NCBI GenBank assembly: GCA_945957365.1
Contig: CAMFKI010000018.1
Coordinates: forward strand, 4,300 to 68,299
Direction: 5' to 3'
Length of the DNA: 64,000 nucleotides
Source of the DNA: an uncultured Alphaproteobacteria bacterium
GTDB lineage: Bacteria; Pseudomonadota; Alphaproteobacteria; Rhizobiales; Aestuariivirgaceae
Made by a program: the position numbers and the translations under genes. The notes under the pieces are model-generated. The model had not been told where the DNA came from and made no database searches. It worked only from the letters and a program-made list of their open reading frames with translations. Below are positions 22,104 to 33,131 of this stretch, piece by piece; within the stretch, counting starts at the first letter, position 1, and the number at the start of each line of letters is the position of its first letter.

Positions 22104-22514
22104 ATGGCAACGCCCGGTTCAACCGACGGCGAGACCCCCGAGGTCAAGATCACCCGGCGCATTGCGGAACTGGGCGACTGGCGCGGCGATGCGCTCGCCA
22201 GGATCCGCAAGCTCATCCATGACGCGGATCCGGAGGTCGTCGAGGAATGGAAATGGCGCGGCGTGCCGGTCTGGTCGCATGGCGGCATCCTGTGCACCGG
22301 AGAAACCTACAAGCAGGTGGTGAAGCTCACCTTCGCCAAGGGGGCGGCGCTGCCGGACCCGGGCAAGCTCTTCAATGCGAGCCTCGAGGGCAACCTGCGC
22401 CGGGCCATCGACCTCCACGACGGTGGCAAGCTGGACGAGGCCGCCTTCAAACAGCTGATCCGTGACGCCATCGCGGCCAATGTCGCAGCCAGGGCAAAGC
22501 GGAAGCGCTCCTGA
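22104..22514 (+). CDS. DUF1801 (YdhG-like) domain protein
   Basis: GDWRG..LARIRKLIHDADPEVVEEWKW, GETYK.VVKLTFAKGA.L.DP.KLFNASLEG. Confidence 0.85.
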   Translation: MATPGSTDGETPEVKITRRIAELGDWRGDALARIRKLIHDADPEVVEEWKWRGVPVWSHGGILCTGETYKQVVKLTFAKGAALPDPGKLFNASLEGNLRRAIDLHDGGKLDEAAFKQLIRDAIAANVAARAKRKRS

Positions 22515-22688: not shown

Positions 22689-23681
22689 CTACGGGCGCAC
22701 GACGGTCTTGAGGCCTTCCGCATTCCCGGCGATCAGCCGTTCGTAGGCGGCCGGCACATCGGCGATGGCGATGTCGCGATCCGCGAGGCTGATGGCCTCG
22801 GCGGCGACGCGGGTGAGCAGGGCGATCGCGTCCGGCAATTCGTCACGGAAGGCATGGCAGCCGATGAGGCTGACCTCGCGCTCGACGAGGATGTTGGGAT
22901 CGAGGTCGAGCCTGCCATGCATGATGCCGACCAGTGCGATGGCGCCGCCGCCGGCCATGCCATCGAGCAGGCCGGCCAGCGCCGCGGTGCTGCCGGTGGC
23001 TTCGATGGCGAAACGAACGTCGCGTGCGGCCGCAGCGGCATCCAGTGTCACCGCCGTGGCGCCGGTCGCCGCGCAGACGCGCGCCACGCGGCGGGCGTTG
23101 CGGTCGGCGACGCGGATGTCGCGGTGGCCGTGCGCTGCGAGGACGAGTGCCGCCAGTCCCCCGATGGGGCCGCAGCCGGCGATCAGCACCGGGGCGCCGG
23201 GCTCGGGCCGCAGCCGCCTCACCGCATGGAGCGCCACGGCGACGGGTTCGGTCATGACGGCCGCCGCGTCGGGCAGGTCGTCCGGCAGCCTGTGCAGCAG
23301 GCGGGCGGGGAGTGAGGTCTGCTCCGCGAAGCCGCCGTCGCAGATTTCGCCGACGAAACCCAGCCTCGCACAGAGATGATGGTTGCCGGCGAGGCAGGCC
23401 GGGCATTCCCCGCACCAGAAGCGGGAGTCGGCCACGACGCGGTCGCCCGGTATCAGGCCCGTGACGCCCGCTCCCAGCGTGGTGACGCGGCCGATCAGTT
23501 CATGGCCCGGAACCGAGGGGCTACGGCTGATCCACTGGCCGGTGCGGTAGTTGTGGACGTCGGACCCGCAGATCCCGGCGGCGGTGACGGCGAGGTTCAC
23601 CCAGCCCGGCTCAGGTGCAGCGGGCGCGGGGATGTCCTCGACGCGGAGATCGCCCCTGGCATGGAGTCTGACGGCCTGCAT
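22689..23681 (-). CDS. Zinc-dependent (MDR) alcohol/polyol dehydrogenase
   Basis: GICGSD, PGHE, CGECPAC...C structural Zn motif, GCGPIG; start 23681. Confidence 0.9.
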   Translation of the reverse strand: MQAVRLHARGDLRVEDIPAPAAPEPGWVNLAVTAAGICGSDVHNYRTGQWISRSPSVPGHELIGRVTTLGAGVTGLIPGDRVVADSRFWCGECPACLAGNHHLCARLGFVGEICDGGFAEQTSLPARLLHRLPDDLPDAAAVMTEPVAVALHAVRRLRPEPGAPVLIAGCGPIGGLAALVLAAHGHRDIRVADRNARRVARVCAATGATAVTLDAAAAARDVRFAIEATGSTAALAGLLDGMAGGGAIALVGIMHGRLDLDPNILVEREVSLIGCHAFRDELPDAIALLTRVAAEAISLADRDIAIADVPAAYERLIAGNAEGLKTVVRP

Positions 23682-23695
23682 GGGCTCTGGTCCTT

Positions 23696-24460
23696 TCAGA
23701 TCGAGGCGAGGAAGCCGCCGTCCACGGGAAAGCATTGGCCGGTGATGTAGCCCGAGGCGCGCGCGGCGAGGAACACCGCGATGCCATCGAGGTCGCGCAA
23801 TTCGCCGAAACGCGCCATCGGGATCTTGGCCAGCATGGCCTGTTGCCATGCGTCGCTCTGGTAGAAGGCCTCCGTCATCGCGGTGCGGAAATAGCCCGGT
23901 GCGATGGCGTTGACGCGGATGCCGAGCGCCGCCCACTCGGCGGCGAGCGCGCGGGTCATGCCGAGGAGGCCGGTCTTCGACGAGCCATAGGGCACGGCGG
24001 TGGGAATGCCGACCTCGGTGGTGAGCGAGCACAGATTGATGATGGAGCCGCCTGCCGTCATGCGCTTCGCGGCGGCCTGCGCGCAGAAAAACGCGCCCTT
24101 CAGGTTGGTGTCGAGAATCTTGTCCCAGAGCGCTTCGGTGACGTCGAGCGAGGGCATCACCTCCTCGGCGCCGGCGTTGTTCACGAGGATCGAGAGGCCG
24201 CCCAGTTGATCCGCTGCGGCGTTCACCGCCGTTGTGACCTGCGCCACGTCGCGCACGTCGAGGGCCAGCGGCACGGCCCTGCGACCCAGGGCTTCGATGG
24301 CCGCCACGCAGGCGCCGAGGCTGGCGGCAGCGCGCGCCGTGACCGCGACGTCGGCCCCGGCGCGGGCCAGCGCCACGGCAATCTCCTGGCCGATGCCGCG
24401 GCTGGCGCCGGTGACGAGTGCGGTCTGGCCGGTGAGGTCGAAGAGTGAGGCATCGCCCAT
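23696..24460 (-). CDS. SDR-family oxidoreductase (gluconate 5-dehydrogenase-like)
   Basis: TGASRGIG, VNNAG, YGSSK catalytic YxxxK, NAIAPGYF; start 24460. Confidence 0.9.
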   Translation of the reverse strand: MGDASLFDLTGQTALVTGASRGIGQEIAVALARAGADVAVTARAAASLGACVAAIEALGRRAVPLALDVRDVAQVTTAVNAAADQLGGLSILVNNAGAEEVMPSLDVTEALWDKILDTNLKGAFFCAQAAAKRMTAGGSIINLCSLTTEVGIPTAVPYGSSKTGLLGMTRALAAEWAALGIRVNAIAPGYFRTAMTEAFYQSDAWQQAMLAKIPMARFGELRDLDGIAVFLAARASGYITGQCFPVDGGFLASI

Positions 24461-24461
24461 G

Positions 24462-25235
24462 TCAGTGGTCCTCGTCGATCTCGTCGCGCAGCTCGTTGAG
24501 GATGCGGCGCTTGAGGGCGATGAAGTCGGGCTCGAGTTCAACGTCCGGGTTGCGCGGGCGCGGGATGTCGATGCGGATATCGGCCTTGAGCTTGCCCGGG
24601 CGCGCCGTCATGACGATCACCCGGTCGCCGAGCAGGATCGCCTCGTCGATGTCATGCGTCACGAAGGCGACCGTGGTGTGGGAATGCTCCCACACCCGCA
24701 GCAGCAGCTTCTGCATGGTGTGCCGCGTCTGGCTGTCGAGCGCGCCGAAGGGCTCGTCCATCAGCAGGATGTCGGGGTCGTTGGCGAGCGCCCGGGCGAT
24801 CGCCACGCGCTGCATCATGCCGCCCGAGAGCTGCTTGGGATAATGCCCTGCAAAGGCGGTGAGGCCGACCTCGCCGAGGTAATGATCGACGATCGTGCTG
24901 CGCTCGGCCTGCGGCAGGCCCTTGCGGCGCGGGCCGTATTCGACGTTCTGGCGCACCGTGAGCCAGGGAAACAGGGTGTAGGACTGGAACACCATGCCGC
25001 GGTCGGCTCCCGGCGCCTCGACGCGCTTGCCGGAGGCGAGGATGCTGCCCGAGGTGGCGTCGATCAGCCCCGCAGCGATGTAGAGCAGGCTCGACTTGCC
25101 GCAGCCCGAAGGGCCGACGATGACGGTGAACTCGTTGGGCTTCACCTCGAAGGAGATGCCGTCGAGCGCCAGCACCCGCTTGTCGCCCTTGCCATAGGTG
25201 AGGGTGACGTCCTGGACGGAAAGATTGCCCTTCAT
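24462..25235 (-). CDS. NitT/TauT-family ABC ATP-binding protein
   Basis: GPSGCGKSS, LSGGMMQR, LMDEPFGALDSQTR; start 25235. Confidence 0.93.
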   Translation of the reverse strand: MKGNLSVQDVTLTYGKGDKRVLALDGISFEVKPNEFTVIVGPSGCGKSSLLYIAAGLIDATSGSILASGKRVEAPGADRGMVFQSYTLFPWLTVRQNVEYGPRRKGLPQAERSTIVDHYLGEVGLTAFAGHYPKQLSGGMMQRVAIARALANDPDILLMDEPFGALDSQTRHTMQKLLLRVWEHSHTTVAFVTHDIDEAILLGDRVIVMTARPGKLKADIRIDIPRPRNPDVELEPDFIALKRRILNELRDEIDEDH

Positions 25236-25237
25236 GC

Positions 25238-26041
25238 TCAAAGCGCCCACGGGCAGAGCCAGCGCCGGAGCAGGCGAAAGGAAATGTCCGAGATCAGGCC
25301 GAGCAGCCCGATCAGCATGATGGCGAGGAAGATGGTGTCGACCTGGAAGCCGCGCATCGCCTTGAGCGAGATGAAGCCGAGGCCTGAGTTGGCGGCGACG
25401 AGCTCGGCCACGACGAGGTAGGTCCAGGCCCAGCCCATGGTGATGCGCAGCGTGTTGATGATGTTGGGCAGGGCTGCCGGGAAGATCACGTGCCAGATCG
25501 CCTCGTTGCGCGTCGTTCCCAGCGTGTAGCTGGCGTTGACGAGATCGCGCGACACGGCATGGGCCTCGTCCGAGATCATGATCAGCTGCGAGAAGAACAC
25601 CCCGAAGAAGATCACCGTGACGCGCTGGCCGAGCCCGATGCCGATCCACAGGATGAACAGGGGCACCAGCGAGGTGACCGGGAGGTAGCGGATGAAGTTC
25701 ACCAGCGGTTCCAGTGCCGCCTGCACGATCTTGTAGGTGCCCATGTAGAGCCCGAGCGGCACGGCGATGACGGCGGAGAGCAGGAAGCCGAGGATGACCA
25801 CCCTGACGCTCGACCAGATATGGACGAACAGCGTGCCGTCCGAGGCCAGCGAAATGCCGCGGCGGATGACGGCGTCGGGCACCGGCAGGAACATGTCGGC
25901 GACGTAGCCGCCATAGGAGGCCAGCGCCCAGGCGCCGAGGACGAGCGTCCACACGATGCAGGCGGCGGTGAGCCCGGCCGCGGCGGGGATTTCGCCGAAG
26001 GGCGTGGCGAAGCTCTGGAGGAGCGTGCGTTTGGTTGGCAT
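25238..26041 (-). CDS. NitT/TauT-family ABC permease
   Basis: FLPVP, FIRYLP, PLFILWIGIG, WTYLVVAELVAANSGLG. Confidence 0.92.
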   Translation of the reverse strand: MPTKRTLLQSFATPFGEIPAAAGLTAACIVWTLVLGAWALASYGGYVADMFLPVPDAVIRRGISLASDGTLFVHIWSSVRVVILGFLLSAVIAVPLGLYMGTYKIVQAALEPLVNFIRYLPVTSLVPLFILWIGIGLGQRVTVIFFGVFFSQLIMISDEAHAVSRDLVNASYTLGTTRNEAIWHVIFPAALPNIINTLRITMGWAWTYLVVAELVAANSGLGFISLKAMRGFQVDTIFLAIMLIGLLGLISDISFRLLRRWLCPWAL

Positions 26042-26107
26042 GGGATGTCCGGAATGGCAGCAAGGCGGGCTCCTCGCCCGCCCTGCGTCAGAAGCCTTGT
26101 TGGGAGG

Positions 26108-27094
26108 TCACTTGGGATCGATGAAGGACGTGTCGATCAGGTCGTTGTAGCCGATGTCCATCTTCATCTTCTGGAACCCGCCCCAGATCTTGTTGCCCAT
26201 CGCCATCAGGTCCTTGGCCTCGCCCTTGTCGGGGGTGCCGAAGAATTCGATGTTGCGGGCCTTGTCGTAGTAGTTGACGCCCTTGGCGGCGCCGGCGAAA
26301 TCCTCCGGCTTCTCGAGATAGCCGCCCACGCCCTTGGCCATGATGGCATAGGCCTCGTCCGGGTTGGTCTTGATGAATTCGACCGCCTTGAACAGGCCCT
26401 TGTTGAAGGCCTCGACGTCCTTCGGGTTGTTCTTGATGTAGTCGCAGGTGAGGTCGACGACGTCGACGATGAGCCCCGGCGTCTGCGAGGAGTCGATCAG
26501 CACCTTGCCCTGCTTCTTCTCGCGCACCAGCGAGAGATGCGGCTCCCAGGTCACGGCGGCGGGGATCTGCCCGGCGATGAAGGCGGCGGCGGCGTCGTCA
26601 GCCGTCATGTTGGTGATCTGCACGTCCTTCTCGGTCATGCCTTCGCGCGATAGCAGGATGTTGAACCAGAACTGCGACACCGAGCCCTCGTTCAGGCCGA
26701 CCTGCTGGCCCTTGAGGTCCTTGAGCGAGTTGACGCCGTCGCGCACCAGCACGCCGTCGCCGCCATGGCTGTCGTCCAGCGCCGACACGACCTTGAAGCA
26801 GAAGTCGGGCGAACGGTACTTCATGATCTCGTCGATCGTCGAGGCGTTGCCGTCGAGCTGCCCCGAGGCGACGGCGGCCATGTAGATCGAGGCGTCCTCG
26901 ATGATGTGGAGGTCGACGTCGAGGCCGTTCTCCTTGAAGAAGCCCTTGTCGCGGGCGAGGAACATCGGGCCGTAGCCCACCCAGGTCGTCATGCCGAGCC
27001 GCATGGTTCCGGCGTCGGCGGGCAGCGCCGACGCGGCCATCGCCACCACGGCTGCGGCCCCGACGCACAGTTTGAAAAGTGACTTGATGCTCAT
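26108..27094 (-). CDS. NitT/TauT (NMT1-like) ABC substrate-binding protein
   Basis: RBS ggaggaaacgagg; signal peptide; TWVGYGPMFLA, DDSHGGDG, AVTWEP. Confidence 0.9.
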   Translation of the reverse strand: MSIKSLFKLCVGAAAVVAMAASALPADAGTMRLGMTTWVGYGPMFLARDKGFFKENGLDVDLHIIEDASIYMAAVASGQLDGNASTIDEIMKYRSPDFCFKVVSALDDSHGGDGVLVRDGVNSLKDLKGQQVGLNEGSVSQFWFNILLSREGMTEKDVQITNMTADDAAAAFIAGQIPAAVTWEPHLSLVREKKQGKVLIDSSQTPGLIVDVVDLTCDYIKNNPKDVEAFNKGLFKAVEFIKTNPDEAYAIMAKGVGGYLEKPEDFAGAAKGVNYYDKARNIEFFGTPDKGEAKDLMAMGNKIWGGFQKMKMDIGYNDLIDTSFIDPK

Positions 27095-27292
27095 GATCCT
27101 CGTTTCCTCCGTGTCCACGCCCATTGTTGTCCGGCGGGCCATTCTGCGCGGCCCCGTCGCGGCTGCGGCATTGGAGCATGCAGCGGCGGGGGCGAAAAGT
27201 ATTTTTTTGCACATGCGCTGCGCAGCACCGGCATTGCCGCGCCGCGGACACTCGGCCTAGTCTTTGGCGACCACAGCCGAGGGGGCAGTCCG

Positions 27293-29398
27293 ATGAACCG
27301 CGATCCGCGTTACGATATCCTGTTCGAGCCGGTGAAGATCGGTCCGGTGACGACGAAGAACCGCTTCTACCAGGTGCCCCACTGCAACGGCATGGGCTAC
27401 CGTGACGCTACGGCACTGGCCACCATGCGGGCCATCAAGGCCGAGGGCGGCTGGGGCGTGGTGTGCACCGAGCAGGTGGAAATCCACCCCACGGGCGACG
27501 TAGCCCCCTTCATCGAGCTGCGCATCTGGGACGACCAGGACCTGCCGATGCTGGCGCGCATCGCCGAGGCGGTGAAGTCGAAGGGTGCGCTCGCCGGGCT
27601 GCAGCTGGCGCACAACAGCATGAATGCGCCGAACCTCTATTCGCGCGAGATCCCGCTGGGGCCGATGGACCTGCCGGTCTACAGCTATTTCAGCGACCCC
27701 GTGCAGGTCCGCGCCATGGACAAGGAAGACATCCGGAACTTCCGCAAGTGGCACCGCGACGCGGCACTGAGGGCCAAGCGCGCCGGCTTCGACATCATCT
27801 ATGTCTATGCCGGCAAGCTGTTCGGCCTGCCGATGTATTTCCTGTCGCGCCGCTTCAACCAGCGCAGCGACGAATATGGCGGCAGCCTGGAGAACCGCGC
27901 GCGCTTCCTGAAGGAGCTGATCGAGGACACCAAGGACGCGGTGGGCGACAGCTGCGCAGTGCCCTGCCGCATCTCGGTCGACGAGATGGTGGGCGACGAG
28001 GGCATCCACGCGGCCGAGGCGCTGGACATCATCGGACACCTGGCGGAGCTCCCCGACCTCTGGGATCTGACGCTGTCGGGCTGGGAGAATGACAGCCAGA
28101 CCTCGCGCTTCGCCGAGGAGGGCTACCAGCTGCCGTTCATCCGGGGCATCAAGCCGCTGACCTCGAAGCCGGTCGTCAGCGTCGGGCGCTATACGTCGCC
28201 GGACCTGATGGTGAAGCTGGTTCGCGACGGTGTCATCGACCTGATCGGCGCGGCCCGGCCATCGATCGCCGATCCCTACCTGCCGAAGAAGATCGAGGAG
28301 GGCCGCATCGAGGACATCCGCGAGTGCATCGGCTGCAACATGTGCGTGGCCGGCGACTTCACCATGACGCCCAGCCGCTGCACGCAGAACCCCTCCTTCG
28401 GTGACGAGTGGCGGCGCGGCTGGCACCCGGAGACGATCCGCAGCGTGAAGAAGGACGCCAGGGTGCTGGTGGTGGGCGCCGGACCCGCCGGCCTCGAGGC
28501 GGCGATGATGCTCGGCCGCCGCGGCGTCGAGGTGGCGCTGGCGGAGCAGGGCGAGCCCGGCGGCCGCGTGCTGCGCGAGGCGAAATTACCCGGTCTCTCG
28601 GCCTGGAAGCGCGTGGCGGATTACCGCCTGGGCCAGCTTCAGCGCGCAACCAAGGTGACGCTCTACCGCGACAGCGCACTGACCGCGGATGACATGCTGG
28701 GCTTCGGCTTCGAACACGTGGCCATCGCCACCGGCTCCGCCTGGCGCGTGGATGGCGTGGGGCGCCGGCTGCTGCGGCCCGCACCGCTCGCCGGCGCCGA
28801 CGTGCTGTCGCCCGACGATCTGATGGCGGGCCGACGGCCCGCGAACCGCAACGTCGTGATCTACGACGACGACCATTACTACATGGGCGGCGTGCTGGCG
28901 GAGCTTCTGGTGAAGGAAGGCTTCACGGTCGCCGTGGTGACGCCCGCCGCCGAGGTCTCGACCTGGATGCGGATGACCATGGAACAGCTTTTCGTGCAGC
29001 ACAGGCTGGTGAACCTCGGGGTGAAGATCATCTCGCACCACCACCTGGTGCGGGCGGATGCCGCGGGCGTCACCTATGCCTGCGGCTTCACCGGCAGGGA
29101 AACCGTCGTCGAAAGCTGTTCGCTGGTGCCGGTGACCGCACGGCTGCCCTTGAATGCGGTGGGCCGTGAGCTTCTGGCACGGCGCGGCGAATGGGCTGCG
29201 GCGGGCCTGCGCTCCGTCACGCTCATCGGCGATGTGCTGGCGCCGGGCACCATCGCCGCCGCCGTGTGGGCCGGCCGGCGCTATGCCGAGGAGTTCGACG
29301 CCGACGAAGGCCCGGTAGCCAGGGACATGCGGCGCGAGGTGACGGGGCTGGCGCCCGGCCCGTTCTATTGGGAGGCGCAGGGCGCTGCGGCGAAATGA
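27293..29398 (+). CDS. Iron-sulfur flavoprotein amine dehydrogenase of the trimethylamine/histamine dehydrogenase family (histamine-dehydrogenase-like)
   Basis: RYDILFEPVKIGP..KNRFYQVPHC (Cys for covalent FMN), EYGGSLENR, RECIGCNMC..C 4Fe-4S motif, VVGAGPAGLEAA. Confidence 0.88.
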   Translation: MNRDPRYDILFEPVKIGPVTTKNRFYQVPHCNGMGYRDATALATMRAIKAEGGWGVVCTEQVEIHPTGDVAPFIELRIWDDQDLPMLARIAEAVKSKGALAGLQLAHNSMNAPNLYSREIPLGPMDLPVYSYFSDPVQVRAMDKEDIRNFRKWHRDAALRAKRAGFDIIYVYAGKLFGLPMYFLSRRFNQRSDEYGGSLENRARFLKELIEDTKDAVGDSCAVPCRISVDEMVGDEGIHAAEALDIIGHLAELPDLWDLTLSGWENDSQTSRFAEEGYQLPFIRGIKPLTSKPVVSVGRYTSPDLMVKLVRDGVIDLIGAARPSIADPYLPKKIEEGRIEDIRECIGCNMCVAGDFTMTPSRCTQNPSFGDEWRRGWHPETIRSVKKDARVLVVGAGPAGLEAAMMLGRRGVEVALAEQGEPGGRVLREAKLPGLSAWKRVADYRLGQLQRATKVTLYRDSALTADDMLGFGFEHVAIATGSAWRVDGVGRRLLRPAPLAGADVLSPDDLMAGRRPANRNVVIYDDDHYYMGGVLAELLVKEGFTVAVVTPAAEVSTWMRMTMEQLFVQHRLVNLGVKIISHHHLVRADAAGVTYACGFTGRETVVESCSLVPVTARLPLNAVGRELLARRGEWAAAGLRSVTLIGDVLAPGTIAAAVWAGRRYAEEFDADEGPVARDMRREVTGLAPGPFYWEAQGAAAK

Positions 29399-29464
29399 TG
29401 CTGCCGCGCGGCGCGCATCTCCAGTAGAACGGCAGGCAGAATGGCATTCGGGAAGGACGGCGGC

Positions 29465-30685
29465 ATGACGGTCGAAAAGGTCGAGACACTCATCATCGGT
29501 GGCGGGCAGGCCGGGCTTGCCGCCAGCCGGCACCTCGGCAAGCGCGGGCGCGAGCACCTGGTGCTCGAGCGCAAGCGCATCGCCGAACGCTGGCGCGCCG
29601 AGCGCTGGGACTCGCTCGTCGCCAACGGCCCGGCCTGGCACGACCGCTTTCCCGACCTCGAATTCAAGTGCCATGGCGATGCCTTCGCGACACGCGACGA
29701 GATCGTGCAGTACCTGGAGGATTACGCCAGGCAGAACCATTCGCCGGTCCGCACCGGCGTCGAGGTGACGGCACTTCACCGCAACGCCGATGGCAGCTTC
29801 CGCGCCGAGACGACGGCCGGCGTGATCGAGGCGAAGAACGTGGTGACGGCGACCGGCCCGTTCCAGAAGCCGCTGCGCCCCGTGATGGTGCCCGACTCCG
29901 AGGGCATCCTGCAGATCCACTCGGCGCATTACCAGAAGCCTTCGCAGCTTCCGCCCGGCGCGGTTCTGGTGGTGGGAGCGGGGTCATCGGGCGCGCAGAT
30001 CGCCGACGAGCTGCAGCGGGCGGGGCGCAAGGTCTATCTCTCGGTCGGCCCGCATGACCGGCCGCCGCGCGCCTATCGCGGCAAGGATTTCGTGTGGTGG
30101 CTGGGCGCACTCGGCAAGTGGAATGCCAAGACCATCGCACCCGGAATGGAGCACGTGACCATCGCGGTGAGCGGCGCCCACGGCGGCCACACGGTCGACT
30201 TCCGCCAGCTGGCGCATCGCGGCATCACGCTGGTCGGCCGCACCGACGGCTTCGCCGATGGCAAGATGAGCTTCGCCCCCGACCTCAAGGCCAACATCGA
30301 GCGCGGCGACGCCAACTACCTCTCGGTGCTGGACGAGGCCGATGCGCATATCGCGGCCAACAAGCTCGATTTCCCGCCCGAGCCCGATGCCCGCAAGCTG
30401 AGCGCCATGCCGGACTGCGCGCTGAACCCCATCCTGTCGCTCGACCTGAAGCAGGCCGGCGTCACCTCGATCGTCTGGGCCACCGGCTATGCGCTCGACT
30501 TCGGCTGGATCAAGTTCGACGCCTTCGACGAGAAGGGCCGGCCGGCGCATGAGCGCGGCGTCTCCAGCAAGGCGCCCGGTCTCTATTTCCTCGGCCTGCC
30601 CTGGCTGACGCGCCGCGCCTCGGCCTTCATCTGGGGTGTGTGGGTGGATGCCGAGCACATCGCGGAGACCATCGCCGCGCGCTAG
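29465..30685 (+). CDS. FAD-dependent oxidoreductase, flavin-containing monooxygenase-like
   Basis: IIGGGQAG FAD motif, RWDSL, IHSAHY, VVGAGSSG NADPH motif, WATGY; start 29465 or 29441. Confidence 0.88.
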   Translation: MTVEKVETLIIGGGQAGLAASRHLGKRGREHLVLERKRIAERWRAERWDSLVANGPAWHDRFPDLEFKCHGDAFATRDEIVQYLEDYARQNHSPVRTGVEVTALHRNADGSFRAETTAGVIEAKNVVTATGPFQKPLRPVMVPDSEGILQIHSAHYQKPSQLPPGAVLVVGAGSSGAQIADELQRAGRKVYLSVGPHDRPPRAYRGKDFVWWLGALGKWNAKTIAPGMEHVTIAVSGAHGGHTVDFRQLAHRGITLVGRTDGFADGKMSFAPDLKANIERGDANYLSVLDEADAHIAANKLDFPPEPDARKLSAMPDCALNPILSLDLKQAGVTSIVWATGYALDFGWIKFDAFDEKGRPAHERGVSSKAPGLYFLGLPWLTRRASAFIWGVWVDAEHIAETIAAR

Positions 30686-33057
30686 GCCTCGTGGTCGGCC
30701 ACCACGCGGACCACGTCGACGAAGCTGTCCGGGCTGACCGAGATCGAGTCGATGCCGCAGTCGACGAGGAAGCGCGCGAATTCGGGATGGTCGCTCGGCG
30801 CCTGCCCGCACAGGCCGACCTTGGCGCCCGCCTTGTGCGCCTCGGTGATGACGTTGCGGATCATCCATTTGACCGCCGCATCCTGCTCGTCGAAGGCATG
30901 GGCGAGCTCGCTCGAATCCCGGTCGATGCCCAGCGTCAGCTGGGTGAGATCGTTGGAGCCGATGGAGAAGCCGTCGAAGCGCCTGGCGAATTCGGCCGCC
31001 AGGATGACGTTCGAGGGGATCTCGCACATGACATAGACCTGGAGTCCGTTGCGGCCGCGTTCGAGCCCTGCCGCCGCCATGGTCTCCAGCACCTTGTCGG
31101 CCTCGCCGACTGAACGGCAGAACGGGATCATGACGATGACGTTGGTGAACCCCATCTCCTCGCGCAGGCGCTTGATGGCCCGGCATTCGAGCATGAAGCC
31201 GTCGCGGTAGCGTGGCGAATAGTAGCGCGAGGCGCCGCGGAAGCCGATCATCGGGTTTTCTTCCTTGGGCTCGAATTCGGCGCCGCCCAGCAGGCTCGCA
31301 TATTCATTGGTCTTGAAGTCGCTCATGCGCACGATGACGGGGCTGGGGTGGAGTGCGGCGGCGATGCGGGCGAGCCCCTGCGACAGCTTGTCGACGAAAT
31401 ATTCCGTCTTGTCGGCATAGCCCGCGGTGAGGGCGGCGATCTCGCCCTTCGCGGCCTGATCGGTGAGCGTGTCGAATCGGACGAGCGCCATGGGATGGAT
31501 GCGGATGTGGTTCGAGACGACGAACTCCATGCGGGCAAGCCCGACGCCCGCGGCCGGCAGCCGCCACCAGCGGAAGGCGGCGGCGGGATTGGCGAGGTTG
31601 AGCATGATCCTGGTGCGCGTGGCGGGCAGGCTGCGGATGTCGATGTCCTCGCTGCTCACCTCCGCGGCACCGCCATAGACGAAGCCTTCGTCGCCCTCCG
31701 CACAGGACACCGTGACGTCCTGTTCGCCGTGCAGCACGGTGGTGGCGTTGCCGGTGCCGACGACGGCGGGAAGCCCCAGCTCGCGGCTGACGATGGCGGC
31801 GTGCGAGGTGCGTCCGCCGTGGTCGGTGACGATCGCCCGGGCGCGCTTCATCACCGGCACCCAGTCGGGATCGGTGGTCGAAGTGACGAGGATCGAACCA
31901 TCGACGAAGCTGCCGATGTCCTTCACGTCCTCGATCAGGCACACCTTGCCCTTGACGGCGGCATCGCCCACCGCGATGCCGGTGACCAGCGGCGCGCCGC
32001 CGCCCGTTACCTTGAAGCTGCGGAAGGCGAGGTTGTCGCGCCGGGCCTGAACCGTTTCGGGCCGGGCCTGGACGATGAACAGCTCGCCGGTTTCCCCGTC
32101 CTTGGCCCATTCCATGTCCATCGGGCAGCCATAATGCGCCTCGATGGCGCGGGCCCAGCCGGCGAGCTTCAGGATCTCGGCGTCGGTCAGCACCCAGGAC
32201 TGGCGCTCGAGCTTCGAGGTGGGCACGTTGCGCACCGGGCGCTCGCCGCCGGTGTCGTAGATCATCTTGATCATCTTGGCGCCGAGCTTCTTCTCGAGAA
32301 TGGGGCGGAGCTGCGGCTGCCCGAGGAAGGGCTTGAAGACGACGTAGTGATCGGGGTCGACCGCGCCCTGCACGACGTTCTCGCCCAGCCCGAAGGCGGC
32401 GTCGATCAGCACCACCTTGTCGTAGCCGGTTTCGGTATCGAGCGAGAACATGACGCCCGAACCGCCGAGGTCGGAGCGCACCATCATCTGGACGCCGACC
32501 GATAGGGCGACACTCAGATGGTCGAAGCCCTTGGCGCGGCGGTAGCTGATGGCACGGTCGGTGAACAGCGAGGCAAAGCACCGGCGGCAGGCGTTGAGCA
32601 GGGCCTCCTCGCCGCTGATGTTCAAATAGGTCTCCTGCTGGCCGGCAAAGCTGGCGTCCGGCAGGTCTTCCGCCGTGGCGCTGGAACGCACAGCCACCGC
32701 GGCGTCTGGCCGGCCCGCGGTTTCGCACAGCCTGCGGTAGCCCGCGACGATGGCGGCGGCCTGGTGCGCCGGCCATGACCCCTTGAGGATGGCGGCGCGG
32801 ATGGCGCTTCCCGTCTCGGCCAATGTCGTGGCGCCCGACTCCCAGGCGGCGAGGGCGGCGCGGATCATCGGCACCAGGTCGTTGGTGCCGAGGAAGGCGC
32901 GGTAGAGGCCTGCCGTGGTGGCGAAGCCCGGCGGCACCTGCACGCCGGCGCGCGCCAGCTGGCTGATCAGTTCGCCCAGTGACGAATTCTTGCCGCCGAC
33001 CTCGGCGACATCCTTGCGCCGGAGGTCTTCGAAGCGGATCACGGTGTTCTCGGTCAT
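30682..33057 (-). CDS. ppsA: Phosphoenolpyruvate synthase (pyruvate,water dikinase)
   Basis: VGGKNSSLGE, VRSSATAED, SFAGQQET, GGRTSHAAIVSRE phospho-His, EENPMIGFRGA, MCEIPSN, GSNDLTQ. Confidence 0.96.
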   Translation of the reverse strand: MTENTVIRFEDLRRKDVAEVGGKNSSLGELISQLARAGVQVPPGFATTAGLYRAFLGTNDLVPMIRAALAAWESGATTLAETGSAIRAAILKGSWPAHQAAAIVAGYRRLCETAGRPDAAVAVRSSATAEDLPDASFAGQQETYLNISGEEALLNACRRCFASLFTDRAISYRRAKGFDHLSVALSVGVQMMVRSDLGGSGVMFSLDTETGYDKVVLIDAAFGLGENVVQGAVDPDHYVVFKPFLGQPQLRPILEKKLGAKMIKMIYDTGGERPVRNVPTSKLERQSWVLTDAEILKLAGWARAIEAHYGCPMDMEWAKDGETGELFIVQARPETVQARRDNLAFRSFKVTGGGAPLVTGIAVGDAAVKGKVCLIEDVKDIGSFVDGSILVTSTTDPDWVPVMKRARAIVTDHGGRTSHAAIVSRELGLPAVVGTGNATTVLHGEQDVTVSCAEGDEGFVYGGAAEVSSEDIDIRSLPATRTRIMLNLANPAAAFRWWRLPAAGVGLARMEFVVSNHIRIHPMALVRFDTLTDQAAKGEIAALTAGYADKTEYFVDKLSQGLARIAAALHPSPVIVRMSDFKTNEYASLLGGAEFEPKEENPMIGFRGASRYYSPRYRDGFMLECRAIKRLREEMGFTNVIVMIPFCRSVGEADKVLETMAAAGLERGRNGLQVYVMCEIPSNVILAAEFARRFDGFSIGSNDLTQLTLGIDRDSSELAHAFDEQDAAVKWMIRNVITEAHKAGAKVGLCGQAPSDHPEFARFLVDCGIDSISVSPDSFVDVVRVVADHEA

Positions 33058-33117
33058 GGCGGCCTTCCCTGCAGGGCGTGTCGCCCCGCAGGCTAGACTG
33101 CCTGGGCCGGGCGCGTG

Positions 33118-33131
33118 CTGATCCATGTCAA
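33118..33131 (-). promoter_or_regulatory. Candidate FNR/FixK-type site upstream of ppsA
   Basis: Minus strand TTGACATGGATCAG versus TTGAT-N4-ATCAA (2 mismatches), about 60 nt upstream of ppsA start. Confidence 0.3.

What the first reader, a model, noticed from the sequence alone, without database searches (positions are those of the whole stretch)
22689..30685. Putative biogenic-amine catabolic locus built around a histamine-dehydrogenase-like enzyme
Seen: a NitT/TauT ABC transporter + SDR + Zn-ADH operon divergent from a TMADH-family flavoprotein and an FMO-like monooxygenase; no local regulator, ETF or aldehyde dehydrogenase. From recalled sequences, the motifs VPHCNGMG, CTEQVEIH, PFIELRIWD, GWEND and CVAGDFT resemble Nocardioides histamine dehydrogenase (Gln, Glu, Trp, Asp determinants) rather than trimethylamine dehydrogenase (Tyr/Trp bowl). 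Inference: uptake and oxidative deamination of histamine or a related amine, then ring hydroxylation and redox steps. This would differ from the aminotransferase-based Pseudomonas hin route.
Basis: partly seen in the sequence, partly recalled or inferred. Interest (0 to 1): 0.6.

Follow-up and report, generated by a model that had tools for sequence, protein, structure and literature searches.

The report
Histamine-type amine breakdown locus, Lys-variant dehydrogenase
This gene cluster most likely imports histamine or a close relative, oxidises it with an unusual version of histamine dehydrogenase and hydroxylates the resulting imidazole-acetate; the rest of the Pseudomonas-type pathway lies elsewhere in the genome, so it is a new variant of a known route rather than a new kind of system.

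Summary
The genes and all five quoted motifs are present at the stated coordinates. The 701-aa flavoprotein matches the two solved histamine dehydrogenases far better than trimethylamine dehydrogenase (871 and 843 bits against 515).

- The enzyme belongs to a large, monophyletic "Lys clade". The histamine-binding residues are kept, but the Tyr-His-Asp triad reads Tyr-Lys-Asp (YAGKLF) in all 120 nearest homologues. The same genome holds a truer orthologue of Rhizobium histamine dehydrogenase on another contig.
- In other genera the importer, the flavin-monooxygenase (FMO)-like gene and the Lys-clade gene sit in clusters with RidA, DUF1028, an M20 deacylase, an aldehyde dehydrogenase and a LysR regulator. 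That set matches the described Pseudomonas hinFLHG/hinD/hinK genes. In this genome those partners lie on contig C45.
- The short-chain dehydrogenase (SDR) and Zn alcohol dehydrogenase (Zn-ADH) belong to a separate conserved SDR-HisD-like-ADH module. They are not conserved with the pathway.

The locus is therefore the uptake and entry part of a split histamine pathway that starts with a dehydrogenase. The exact substrate of the Lys variant is open, because every Lys-clade genome examined also has a His-type paralogue. This scan found dehydrogenase-plus-Hin clusters before on other DNA. The Lys clade and its TauT-type importer are the new elements.

The parts
22689..23681 (-). Zn-dependent medium-chain alcohol dehydrogenase, 330 aa, last gene of the importer operon
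   Evidence: Pfam ADH_N + ADH_zinc_N. Below the cut-off of every NCBIfam equivalog; nearest are threonine and polyol dehydrogenases. Best PDB matches are butanediol and threonine dehydrogenases at about 120 bits; HpsP-like 8WWD scores only 103 bits. Orthologues elsewhere follow a HisD-like gene.
23696..24460 (-). Short-chain dehydrogenase/reductase (SDR), 254 aa
   Evidence: Pfam adh_short_C2. Best PDB match is the uncharacterised 4J2H (342 bits); HpsO 8WWF scores 146 bits. Orthologues at 64-75% identity head an SDR-HisD-like-ADH trio in other Hyphomicrobiales.
24462..25235 (-). ABC importer ATPase (TauT/NitT type), 257 aa
   Evidence: Pfam ABC_tran. Nearest NCBIfam models are the SaoA, nitrate and taurine ATPases, all below cut-off. 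Orthologues at 66-82% identity lie next to HDH-like genes in other genera.
25238..26041 (-). ABC importer permease, 267 aa
   Evidence: Pfam BPD_transp_1; TauC/SsuC-like, below cut-off.
26108..27094 (-). Periplasmic binding protein of the NMT1/SsuA family ('SBP1'), 328 aa, with a Sec signal peptide
   Evidence: Pfam NMT1 and NMT1_2. Only distant PDB matches (TauA, 46 bits). Orthologues at 63% identity or more occur in 7 of 201 genomes of the order, each within about 13 kb of an HDH-like gene. Copies at 46% identity or less are not so linked, judged by coordinates for three of five genomes.
27095..27292 (.). Divergent promoter region carrying a genus-conserved AT-rich element, GAAAAGTATTTTTTTGCACATG, at 27194-27215
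   Evidence: One copy in the window, none in 100 shuffles. The core is conserved in the four Aestuariivirga relatives L009-L012. No function is shown.
27293..29398 (+). Lys-clade histamine-dehydrogenase-like iron-sulfur flavoprotein, 701 aa (P0001)
   Evidence: It has Cys31 for 6-S-cysteinyl-FMN, the Fe-S ligands Cys345/348/351/363 and an ADP-binding GxGxxG motif. The binding residues Gln61, Val70, Phe73, Glu75, Asn111, Trp264 and Asp355 are kept. The triad reads Tyr172-Lys175-Asp267.
29441..30685 (+). FMO-like class B flavin monooxygenase, 414 aa, a candidate imidazole-acetate monooxygenase (HinF-type)
   Evidence: Pfam Pyr_redox_3. Two dinucleotide-binding motifs and similarity to type II FMOs 4USQ and 4A9W. 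Homologues at 61-73% identity stand directly before RidA-DUF1028 in L090, L091, L099, L126 and L130; in L129 the homologue follows the importer genes on the opposite strand.

Best explanation
The locus is the uptake and entry module of a histamine-type (imidazole-ethylamine) catabolic pathway that starts with a dehydrogenase and is split over at least two loci. A TauT-family ABC importer brings the amine in. The Lys-variant flavoprotein (6-S-cysteinyl-FMN and a 4Fe-4S cluster) oxidatively deaminates it to the aldehyde, passing electrons to an unlinked acceptor, probably the single ETF. An unlinked aldehyde dehydrogenase makes imidazole-4-acetate. The FMO-like enzyme hydroxylates the imidazole ring. 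RidA, DUF1028 and the M20 deacylase on contig C45, which match the descriptions of Pseudomonas HinL, HinH and HinG, finish the route to aspartate. Shown: gene content, family membership, conserved binding residues and conserved gene neighbourhoods. Inferred: the substrate, the direction of each step, and the equation of the FMO-like gene with HinF. The SDR and Zn-ADH are probably a recruited accessory pair of unknown role.
For: 1. The enzyme scores 871 and 843 bits against the two solved histamine dehydrogenases and 515 bits against TMADH.
2. All residues proposed to bind histamine in the N. simplex enzyme (PMC10180351) are kept. Tyr181 is Phe here, as in the Rhizobium enzyme, and Ile74 is Val.
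3. Outside the genus, 10 of 17 Lys-clade loci have RidA + DUF1028 within 10 kb, 9 of them with M20 as well. Seven have the same importer and 6 the FMO-like gene.
4. Three loci are close to complete pathways. Insolitispirillum: M20, Aldedh | K-HDH-SBP-perm-ATPase-HpaB-RidA-DUF1028-LysR. G020: K-HDH-M20-HpaB-FlavRed-RidA-DUF1028-LysR-SBP-perm-ATPase-classical HDH. G119 is similar but uses the FMO-like gene.
5. In G165 and G027 the same importer and FMO-like gene sit with RidA, DUF1028, Aldedh, LysR, M20 and a Rhizobium-type histamine dehydrogenase, with no Lys variant.
6. FMO-RidA-DUF1028 followed by an oppositely oriented M20 in Rubellimicrobium holds the same four gene types as hinFLHG (PA5393-5390), which converts imidazole-acetate to aspartate (PMC8231116; PMC6467879).
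7. This genome has LysR, FlavRed, HpaB, RidA, DUF1028 and M20 on contig C45.
Against: The triad His is Lys in the whole clade, and no member has been characterised. Every Lys-clade genome in the order sample (5 of 5) also has a His-type HDH-like gene, often in the same cluster, which suggests a non-redundant substrate or role. In this genome a two-box site found nowhere else links the classical HDH gene (C5) to the C45 operon, and the window has no such site. No aldehyde dehydrogenase is in the locus. I could not compare the FMO-like, RidA, DUF1028 and M20 proteins directly with the Pseudomonas Hin sequences, so that equation rests on published descriptions, gene order and my recollection of the PAO1 annotations.
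Confidence: 0.62

Rival explanations
1. The Lys-variant enzyme works on a histamine derivative or another imidazole amine, for example N-methylhistamine. It feeds the same lower pathway in parallel with the classical histamine dehydrogenase encoded elsewhere.
For: It always co-occurs with a His-type paralogue. The changes at 175-177 and 356 sit beside an otherwise identical pocket. The classical HDH and the C45 operon share an operator-like site that the window lacks. The C45 operon carries an extra GbcA-like Rieske oxygenase (an N-demethylase family, below cut-off) and an HDAC-like amidohydrolase between RidA and DUF1028.
Against: The residues around the amine-binding site are those of primary-amine histamine dehydrogenases. 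In Insolitispirillum the Lys variant is the only dehydrogenase inside the operon. No direct evidence points to any particular derivative.
Confidence: 0.22
2. The enzyme oxidises a non-imidazole biogenic amine such as agmatine, putrescine or cadaverine, and its linkage to the Hin-type genes is incidental.
For: In my recollection the characterised histamine dehydrogenases also accept agmatine and some diamines; the protein-engineering paper scores a histamine/agmatine activity ratio, which implies agmatine activity (PMC10180351). One Lys-clade locus has an arginase-family gene nearby.
Against: The linkage to RidA/DUF1028/M20 recurs in many gene orders and genera. No guanidinobutyrase or GABA genes are in the window or in most loci.
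Confidence: 0.1
3. The left operon (TauT-type importer + SDR + Zn-ADH) is a sulfonate system of the dihydroxypropanesulfonate (HpsO/HpsP) type and is unrelated to the divergent flavoprotein genes.
For: The binding protein falls in the SsuA/TauA family. An SDR-HisD-like-ADH trio with a TauT-type importer has the same architecture as hpsO-hpsN-hpsP (PMC11131964).
Against: The SDR scores 146 bits to HpsO and 342 bits to an unrelated structure, and the ADH scores 103 bits to the HpsP-like entry. HisD-like HpsN is absent from the locus. This importer subtype (57-84% identity) travels with HDH-like genes without SDR or ADH, whereas the trio elsewhere uses a different importer that is only 35-37% identical.
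Confidence: 0.05

Closest known systems
Histamine dehydrogenase of Nocardioides simplex (PDB 3K30) and of Rhizobium sp. 4-9 (PDB 6DE6)
   Same: Same three-domain iron-sulfur flavoprotein. It has the flavinylated Cys, the Fe-S Cys ligands and the ADP site, and the proposed histamine-binding residues Gln, Ile/Val, Phe, Glu, Asn, Trp and Asp.
   Different: The triad reads Tyr-Lys-Asp, not Tyr-His-Asp, and the next two residues are Leu-Phe. It is a separate monophyletic clade, sister to the group that holds the Rhizobium-type and actinobacterial enzymes. The genome's C5 paralogue is the real Rhizobium-type orthologue.
Pseudomonas Hin histamine pathway (hinABCD, hinFLHG, hinK; P. putida U and P. 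aeruginosa PAO1)
   Same: Comparable gene types are present: an aldehyde dehydrogenase, a flavin monooxygenase followed by RidA (HinL, 'enamine deaminase'), a protein of unknown family (HinH; here DUF1028), an amidase or deformylase (HinG; here M20) and a LysR regulator.
   Different: Entry is by a dehydrogenase and not the HinC aminotransferase. Uptake is by a TauT-family ABC importer and not the HinA permease. Here the pathway is split between the window and contig C45, and an HpaB-type two-component oxygenase is present as well.
Trimethylamine dehydrogenase (PDB 1DJN/2TMD)
   Same: Same fold and cofactors.
   Different: The aromatic bowl (Tyr/Trp/Trp) is replaced by Gln/Trp/Asp, and the score is far lower (515 bits). 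Two other paralogues of this genome (C5b, C3) carry Tyr at the first bowl position; the other two bowl positions differ.
Dehydrogenase-plus-Hin clusters noted earlier in this scan (Cypionkella, Paracoccus and others)
   Same: An HDH-like entry enzyme joined to RidA/DUF1028 and an oxygenase.
   Different: The Paracoccaceae clusters examined here use a His-type (AGHAL) dehydrogenase and a PotD-type importer. This locus uses the Lys clade and a TauT-type importer.

Membership tests
Histamine dehydrogenase (TMADH family) | Oxidored_FMN barrel plus two nucleotide-binding domains, about 690 aa | tested here: met
   Pfam PF00724, PF22620 and a Rossmann domain. Full-length alignment to 3K30 and 6DE6.
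Histamine dehydrogenase (TMADH family) | Cys for 6-S-cysteinyl-FMN, and the CxxCxxC...C ligands of the 4Fe-4S cluster | tested here: met
   Cys31 and Cys345/348/351/363 in the translation.
Histamine dehydrogenase (TMADH family) | Gln65/Glu79/Trp267/Asp358-type substrate site in place of the TMADH aromatic bowl | tested here: met
   Gln61, Glu75, Trp264 and Asp355, plus Phe73 and Asn111.
Histamine dehydrogenase (TMADH family) | Tyr-His-Asp catalytic triad (Tyr176-His179-Asp270 in N. simplex) | tested here: not met
   His is Lys175 (YAGKLF) here and in all 120 nearest homologues.
Histamine dehydrogenase (TMADH family) | [quoted passage not shown] | not testable with these tools
   Only genomic context bears on this.
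Pseudomonas-type Hin pathway | hinFLHG-like lower genes (monooxygenase, RidA, HinH, amidase) | tested here: inconclusive
   The FMO-like gene is in the window; RidA, DUF1028 and M20 are on C45. Gene order matches elsewhere. No direct alignment to the Pseudomonas proteins was possible.
Pseudomonas-type Hin pathway | HinC aminotransferase entry and HinA APC permease | tested here: not met
   Neither is in the locus. A dehydrogenase and an ABC importer take their places. The rest of the genome was not searched for them.
TauT/NitT-family ABC importers | NMT1/SsuA-type binding protein, one permease and one ATPase | tested here: met
   Pfam and NCBIfam. All scores are below the equivalog cut-offs, so the substrate is not assigned.
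DHPS dehydrogenases HpsO/HpsP | Closest similarity to the characterised HpsO and HpsP, with HpsN in the operon | tested here: not met
   146 and 103 bits, not the top hits. No HisD-like gene is in the locus.
4-hydroxyphenylacetate 3-monooxygenase (for the C45 HpaB gene) | Score above the HpaB equivalog cut-off | tested here: not met
   230 bits against a cut-off of 480, so it is a divergent member of the HpaB family.

The most novel reading that the evidence does not exclude
The Lys clade is a functionally distinct amine dehydrogenase with a Tyr-Lys-Asp triad. It accompanies the classical histamine dehydrogenase and opens the pathway to a second, so far unrecognised substrate, such as an N-substituted histamine. 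The linked TauT-family transporter would then be the first ABC importer of that family for an imidazole amine.
Probability: 0.3. Interest if true: 0.65.

Novelty: new variant of a known kind. Interest (0 to 1): 0.5.

Why it matters
Histamine dehydrogenases are used in food-quality and clinical histamine sensors. A natural, widespread clade with a Lys in the catalytic triad and small pocket changes is a ready source of variants with different specificity or redox behaviour. I found no description of a dehydrogenase-initiated histamine route with Hin-type lower steps, nor of a TauT-type importer for it, in the literature I could search. The locus gives testable candidates for each step in freshwater and soil Alphaproteobacteria. 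The finding also shows that one genome can hold five TMADH-family paralogues with different contexts, which is a warning against annotating all of them as 'dimethylamine/trimethylamine dehydrogenase'.

Tried and rejected
1. DHPS (hpsO/hpsP) reading of the SDR and ADH: rejected on PDB scores and on importer subtype.
2. A sigma-54 promoter in the AT-rich intergenic element: the GG-N10-GC spacing does not fit (inspection).
3. An operator shared between the window's intergenic region and the C45 or C5 promoters: none was found. The two-box site is confined to C5 and C45. No common motif appeared upstream of Lys-clade genes across genera.
4. A direct check that PA5390-5393 belong to the M20, DUF1028, RidA and FMO-like families: no Pseudomonas sequence was reachable. 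The control genomes of the genome search gave no Pseudomonas hit, the de la Torre 2018 paper is not held, and literature searches for DUF1028 and PA5393 gave nothing useful.
5. The look-up of encoding contigs for the L026 protein found no record; I annotated that locus by Pfam.
6. The neighbourhood of the classical HDH (C5a) was uninformative.
7. No characterised member of the Lys clade turned up in the literature searches.
Full report
WHAT IS THERE. The window is G000:C18:4300-68299 of a 4.3-Mb, 71-contig genome. Its nearest relatives by protein and locus identity are Aestuariivirga (Hyphomicrobiales) at 90-93%. Between DUF1801 (22104-22514, +) and PpsA (30682-33126, -) lie seven genes.
- Minus strand, one tightly packed operon: an NMT1/SsuA-type binding protein with a signal peptide (26108-27094), a permease (25238-26041), an ATPase (24462-25235), an SDR (23696-24460) and a Zn-ADH (22689-23681).
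- Plus strand, after a 198-nt divergent region: a 701-aa TMADH-family flavoprotein (27293-29398, P0001) and an FMO-like Pyr_redox_3 protein (29441-30685).
There is no local regulator, ETF or aldehyde dehydrogenase; the one ETF locus is on contig C4.

THE FLAVOPROTEIN. P0001 aligns end to end with the histamine dehydrogenases of N. simplex (3K30, 871 bits) and Rhizobium sp. 4-9 (6DE6, 843 bits), then with 6L6J (680 bits) and TMADH (515 bits). The residues proposed to bind histamine in the N. simplex enzyme are Gln65, Ile74, Phe77, Glu79, Asn115, Tyr181, Trp267 and Asp358 (PMC10180351). They correspond here to Gln61, Val70, Phe73, Glu75, Asn111, Phe177, Trp264 and Asp355. The flavinylated Cys31 and the Fe-S cysteines are present. 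The exception is the catalytic triad: the His (His179 in N. simplex, His174 in Rhizobium) is Lys175, in the motif YAGKLF. All 120 nearest database homologues, at 65-93% identity, carry a Lys at this position, and most read exactly YAGKLF. They come from Aestuariivirga, Labrys, Xanthobacter, Hyphomicrobium, Taklimakanibacter, Acidisoma, Acidiphilium, Insolitispirillum and Steroidobacteraceae. In a tree of 82 family members the Lys clade is monophyletic. It is sister to a group that holds an actinobacterial clade, the Rhizobium-type GAHGF clade and an AxHxL clade of Paracoccaceae and Rhodospirillales. I did not extract branch support values. Across 22 active-site and pocket positions the Lys clade differs from the AxHxL clade at 175 (Lys for His), 176 (Leu for Gly/Ala) and 177 (Phe for Leu). 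Positions 132 and 356 vary within the Lys clade (356 is Phe or His).

PARALOGUES. The genome has five TMADH-family genes.
- C5:129218-131275 scores 1080 bits to 6DE6 and is the true Rhizobium-type orthologue.
- The C20 gene has Met in place of the Gln and a VTHD motif.
- C5b and C3 carry Tyr at the first position of the TMADH aromatic bowl; the other two bowl positions differ.
The window's gene is therefore HDH-like, but it is not this genome's closest match to a characterised histamine dehydrogenase.

CONTEXT IN OTHER GENOMES. I fetched 80 loci around relatives and scored the window's genes and their partners by tblastn.
- Within Aestuariivirga the whole locus is conserved (L009-L012; L009 lacks the FMO-like gene).
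- Outside the genus, 10 of 17 Lys-clade loci have RidA + DUF1028 within 10 kb, 9 of them with an M20 deacylase as well. Seven have the same importer (SBP 57-84% identical) and 6 have the FMO-like gene.
- None of about 20 loci of the C20-type clade (16 of them in the tree) has any of these genes.
Gene maps with Pfam calls show the pattern clearly.
- Xanthobacter and Hyphomicrobium: importer, LysR, M20, Lys-HDH, FMO-like, RidA, DUF1028, Aldedh and a second, Rhizobium-type HDH. Xanthobacter also has HpaB.
- Labrys: HpaB, flavin reductase, RidA, DUF1028, M20 and Lys-HDH.
- Insolitispirillum: M20 and Aldedh divergent from Lys-HDH-SBP-permease-ATPase-HpaB-RidA-DUF1028-LysR.
In a sample of 201 genomes of the order, the Lys clade (71% identity or more) occurs in 5 genomes. 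Each of these also has a His-type HDH-like gene. Binding-protein orthologues at 63% identity or more occur in 7 genomes, always within about 13 kb of an HDH-like gene. By their coordinates, copies at 46% identity or less lie far from any HDH-like gene in three of the five genomes that hold them; the other two cannot be placed. Two of those seven genomes (G165, G027) have importer ... FMO-RidA-DUF1028-Aldedh-LysR, M20 and a Rhizobium-type HDH, and no Lys variant. G020 and G119 have both dehydrogenases in one cluster. An FMO-like homologue in Rubellimicrobium stands as FMO-RidA-DUF1028 with M20 alongside and no dehydrogenase.

LINK TO THE KNOWN PATHWAY. In P. putida U and P. aeruginosa, HinC (aminotransferase) and HinD (aldehyde dehydrogenase) make imidazole-4-acetate. 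hinFLHG (PA5393-5390) converts it to aspartate, and the LysR regulator HinK senses imidazole-acetate (PMC8231116). HinF is described as an FAD monooxygenase (EC 1.14.13.5), HinL as an enamine deaminase, HinH as an amidase or hypothetical protein, and HinG as an amidase, EC 3.5.1.8 (PMC6467879). The gene set FMO-like (or HpaB + reductase), RidA, DUF1028 and an ArgE-like M20 deacylase (510 bits to the PRK07522 subfamily) fits these descriptions, and in Rubellimicrobium also the order. Earlier notes of this scan reached the same reading on other DNA; I treated them as leads. I could not align to the Pseudomonas proteins, so this equation is an inference. The free exchange of FMO-like and HpaB oxygenases between otherwise equal clusters suggests that they do the same step.

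THIS GENOME. The missing partners lie on contig C45: DAO, LysR, flavin reductase, HpaB, RidA, a GbcA-like Rieske oxygenase, an HDAC-like amidohydrolase, DUF1028 and M20. The best aldehyde dehydrogenase homologue (55%) is on C24. A two-box site, TCCTAT-N13-ATAATCTATTT, occurs only twice in the genome: upstream of the classical HDH gene on C5, and between LysR and the reductase-HpaB operon on C45. It is absent from the window. The window's intergenic region has its own element, conserved within the genus, at 27194-27215.

THE SDR AND ZN-ADH. Orthologues (52-75% identity) form an SDR-HisD-like-ADH trio in nine other genomes of the order. In four of these an own TauT-type importer lies nearby, only 35-37% identical in the binding protein. 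In the one locus I scanned (L118) a HutC-type GntR regulator is also present. One Lys-clade locus (L097) has this trio beside the histamine-type cluster. The architecture recalls hpsO-hpsN-hpsP for dihydroxypropanesulfonate (PMC11131964). The proteins are not orthologous to HpsO or HpsP, however: they score 146 and 103 bits, and the SDR scores 342 bits to the uncharacterised 4J2H. In Aestuariivirga only the SDR and ADH remain, fused to the end of the importer operon. Their role is unknown; acting on imidazole acetaldehyde or imidazole ethanol is a guess.

VERDICT. The locus most likely encodes uptake, oxidative deamination and ring hydroxylation in a histamine-type pathway whose lower half sits on another contig (confidence about 0.6). 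The main open point is the substrate of the Lys clade. It may be histamine itself. Alternatively, since the clade always accompanies a His-type enzyme, it may be a derivative or a second amine (about 0.2-0.3). It is a new variant of a known kind. The general dehydrogenase-plus-Hin arrangement was already found by this scan on other DNA. The Lys clade, its constant pairing with a His-type paralogue and the TauT-type importer are the new elements.

Noticed in passing
G000 contig C45:3203-11107 (locus L093): The lower-pathway operon LysR | FlavRed-HpaB-RidA-...-DUF1028, M20 carries two extra genes between RidA and DUF1028. One is a GbcA-like Rieske oxygenase (an N-demethylase family; 146 bits, below cut-off). 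The other is an HDAC-like (acetylpolyamine-type) amidohydrolase. They might admit N-methylated or N-acetylated histamine.
   Followed up: partly
G000 C5:131374-131403 and C45:4119-4148: A two-box site, TCCTAT-N13-ATAATCTATTT, occurs only at these two places in the 4.3-Mb genome: upstream of the Rhizobium-type histamine dehydrogenase gene and in the LysR/reductase-HpaB intergenic region. It is a likely shared operator, and it is not present in the window.
   Followed up: partly
L118-L120, L122-L125 (other Hyphomicrobiales genomes); window 22689-24460: A conserved SDR-HisD-like-Zn-ADH trio, often with its own TauT-type ABC importer. In the one locus scanned (L118) a HutC-type GntR regulator scores above the HutC equivalog cut-off. 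The architecture resembles hpsO-hpsN-hpsP, but the proteins are not orthologous, and the substrate is unknown.
   Followed up: partly
G000 C20:54148-56193 (L095) and about 20 related loci (for example L049-L054): A separate HDH-like clade with Met in place of the substrate-site Gln and a CVTHD motif. It is never linked to Hin-type genes in the loci examined, and its substrate is unknown.
   Followed up: no
L026:13228-14418 (Paracoccaceae MAG): A flavin reductase fused to a LysR substrate-binding domain lies next to HpaB and DUF1028. A PotD-type ABC importer lies upstream of a His-type HDH. Earlier notes of this scan reported the same fusion.
   Followed up: partly
window 27194-27215: An AT-rich element, GAAAAGTATTTTTTTGCACATG, sits in the divergent promoter region. 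Its core is conserved in four Aestuariivirga relatives. It is not a sigma-54 site, and no regulator is assigned.
   Followed up: partly
window 30682-30685: The FMO-like gene and the convergent ppsA gene overlap by 4 nt at their stop codons.
   Followed up: no
L097:16825-20161: In one Lys-clade locus the SDR-HisD-like-ADH trio is followed by an arginase-family gene and a second NMT1-type importer.
   Followed up: no
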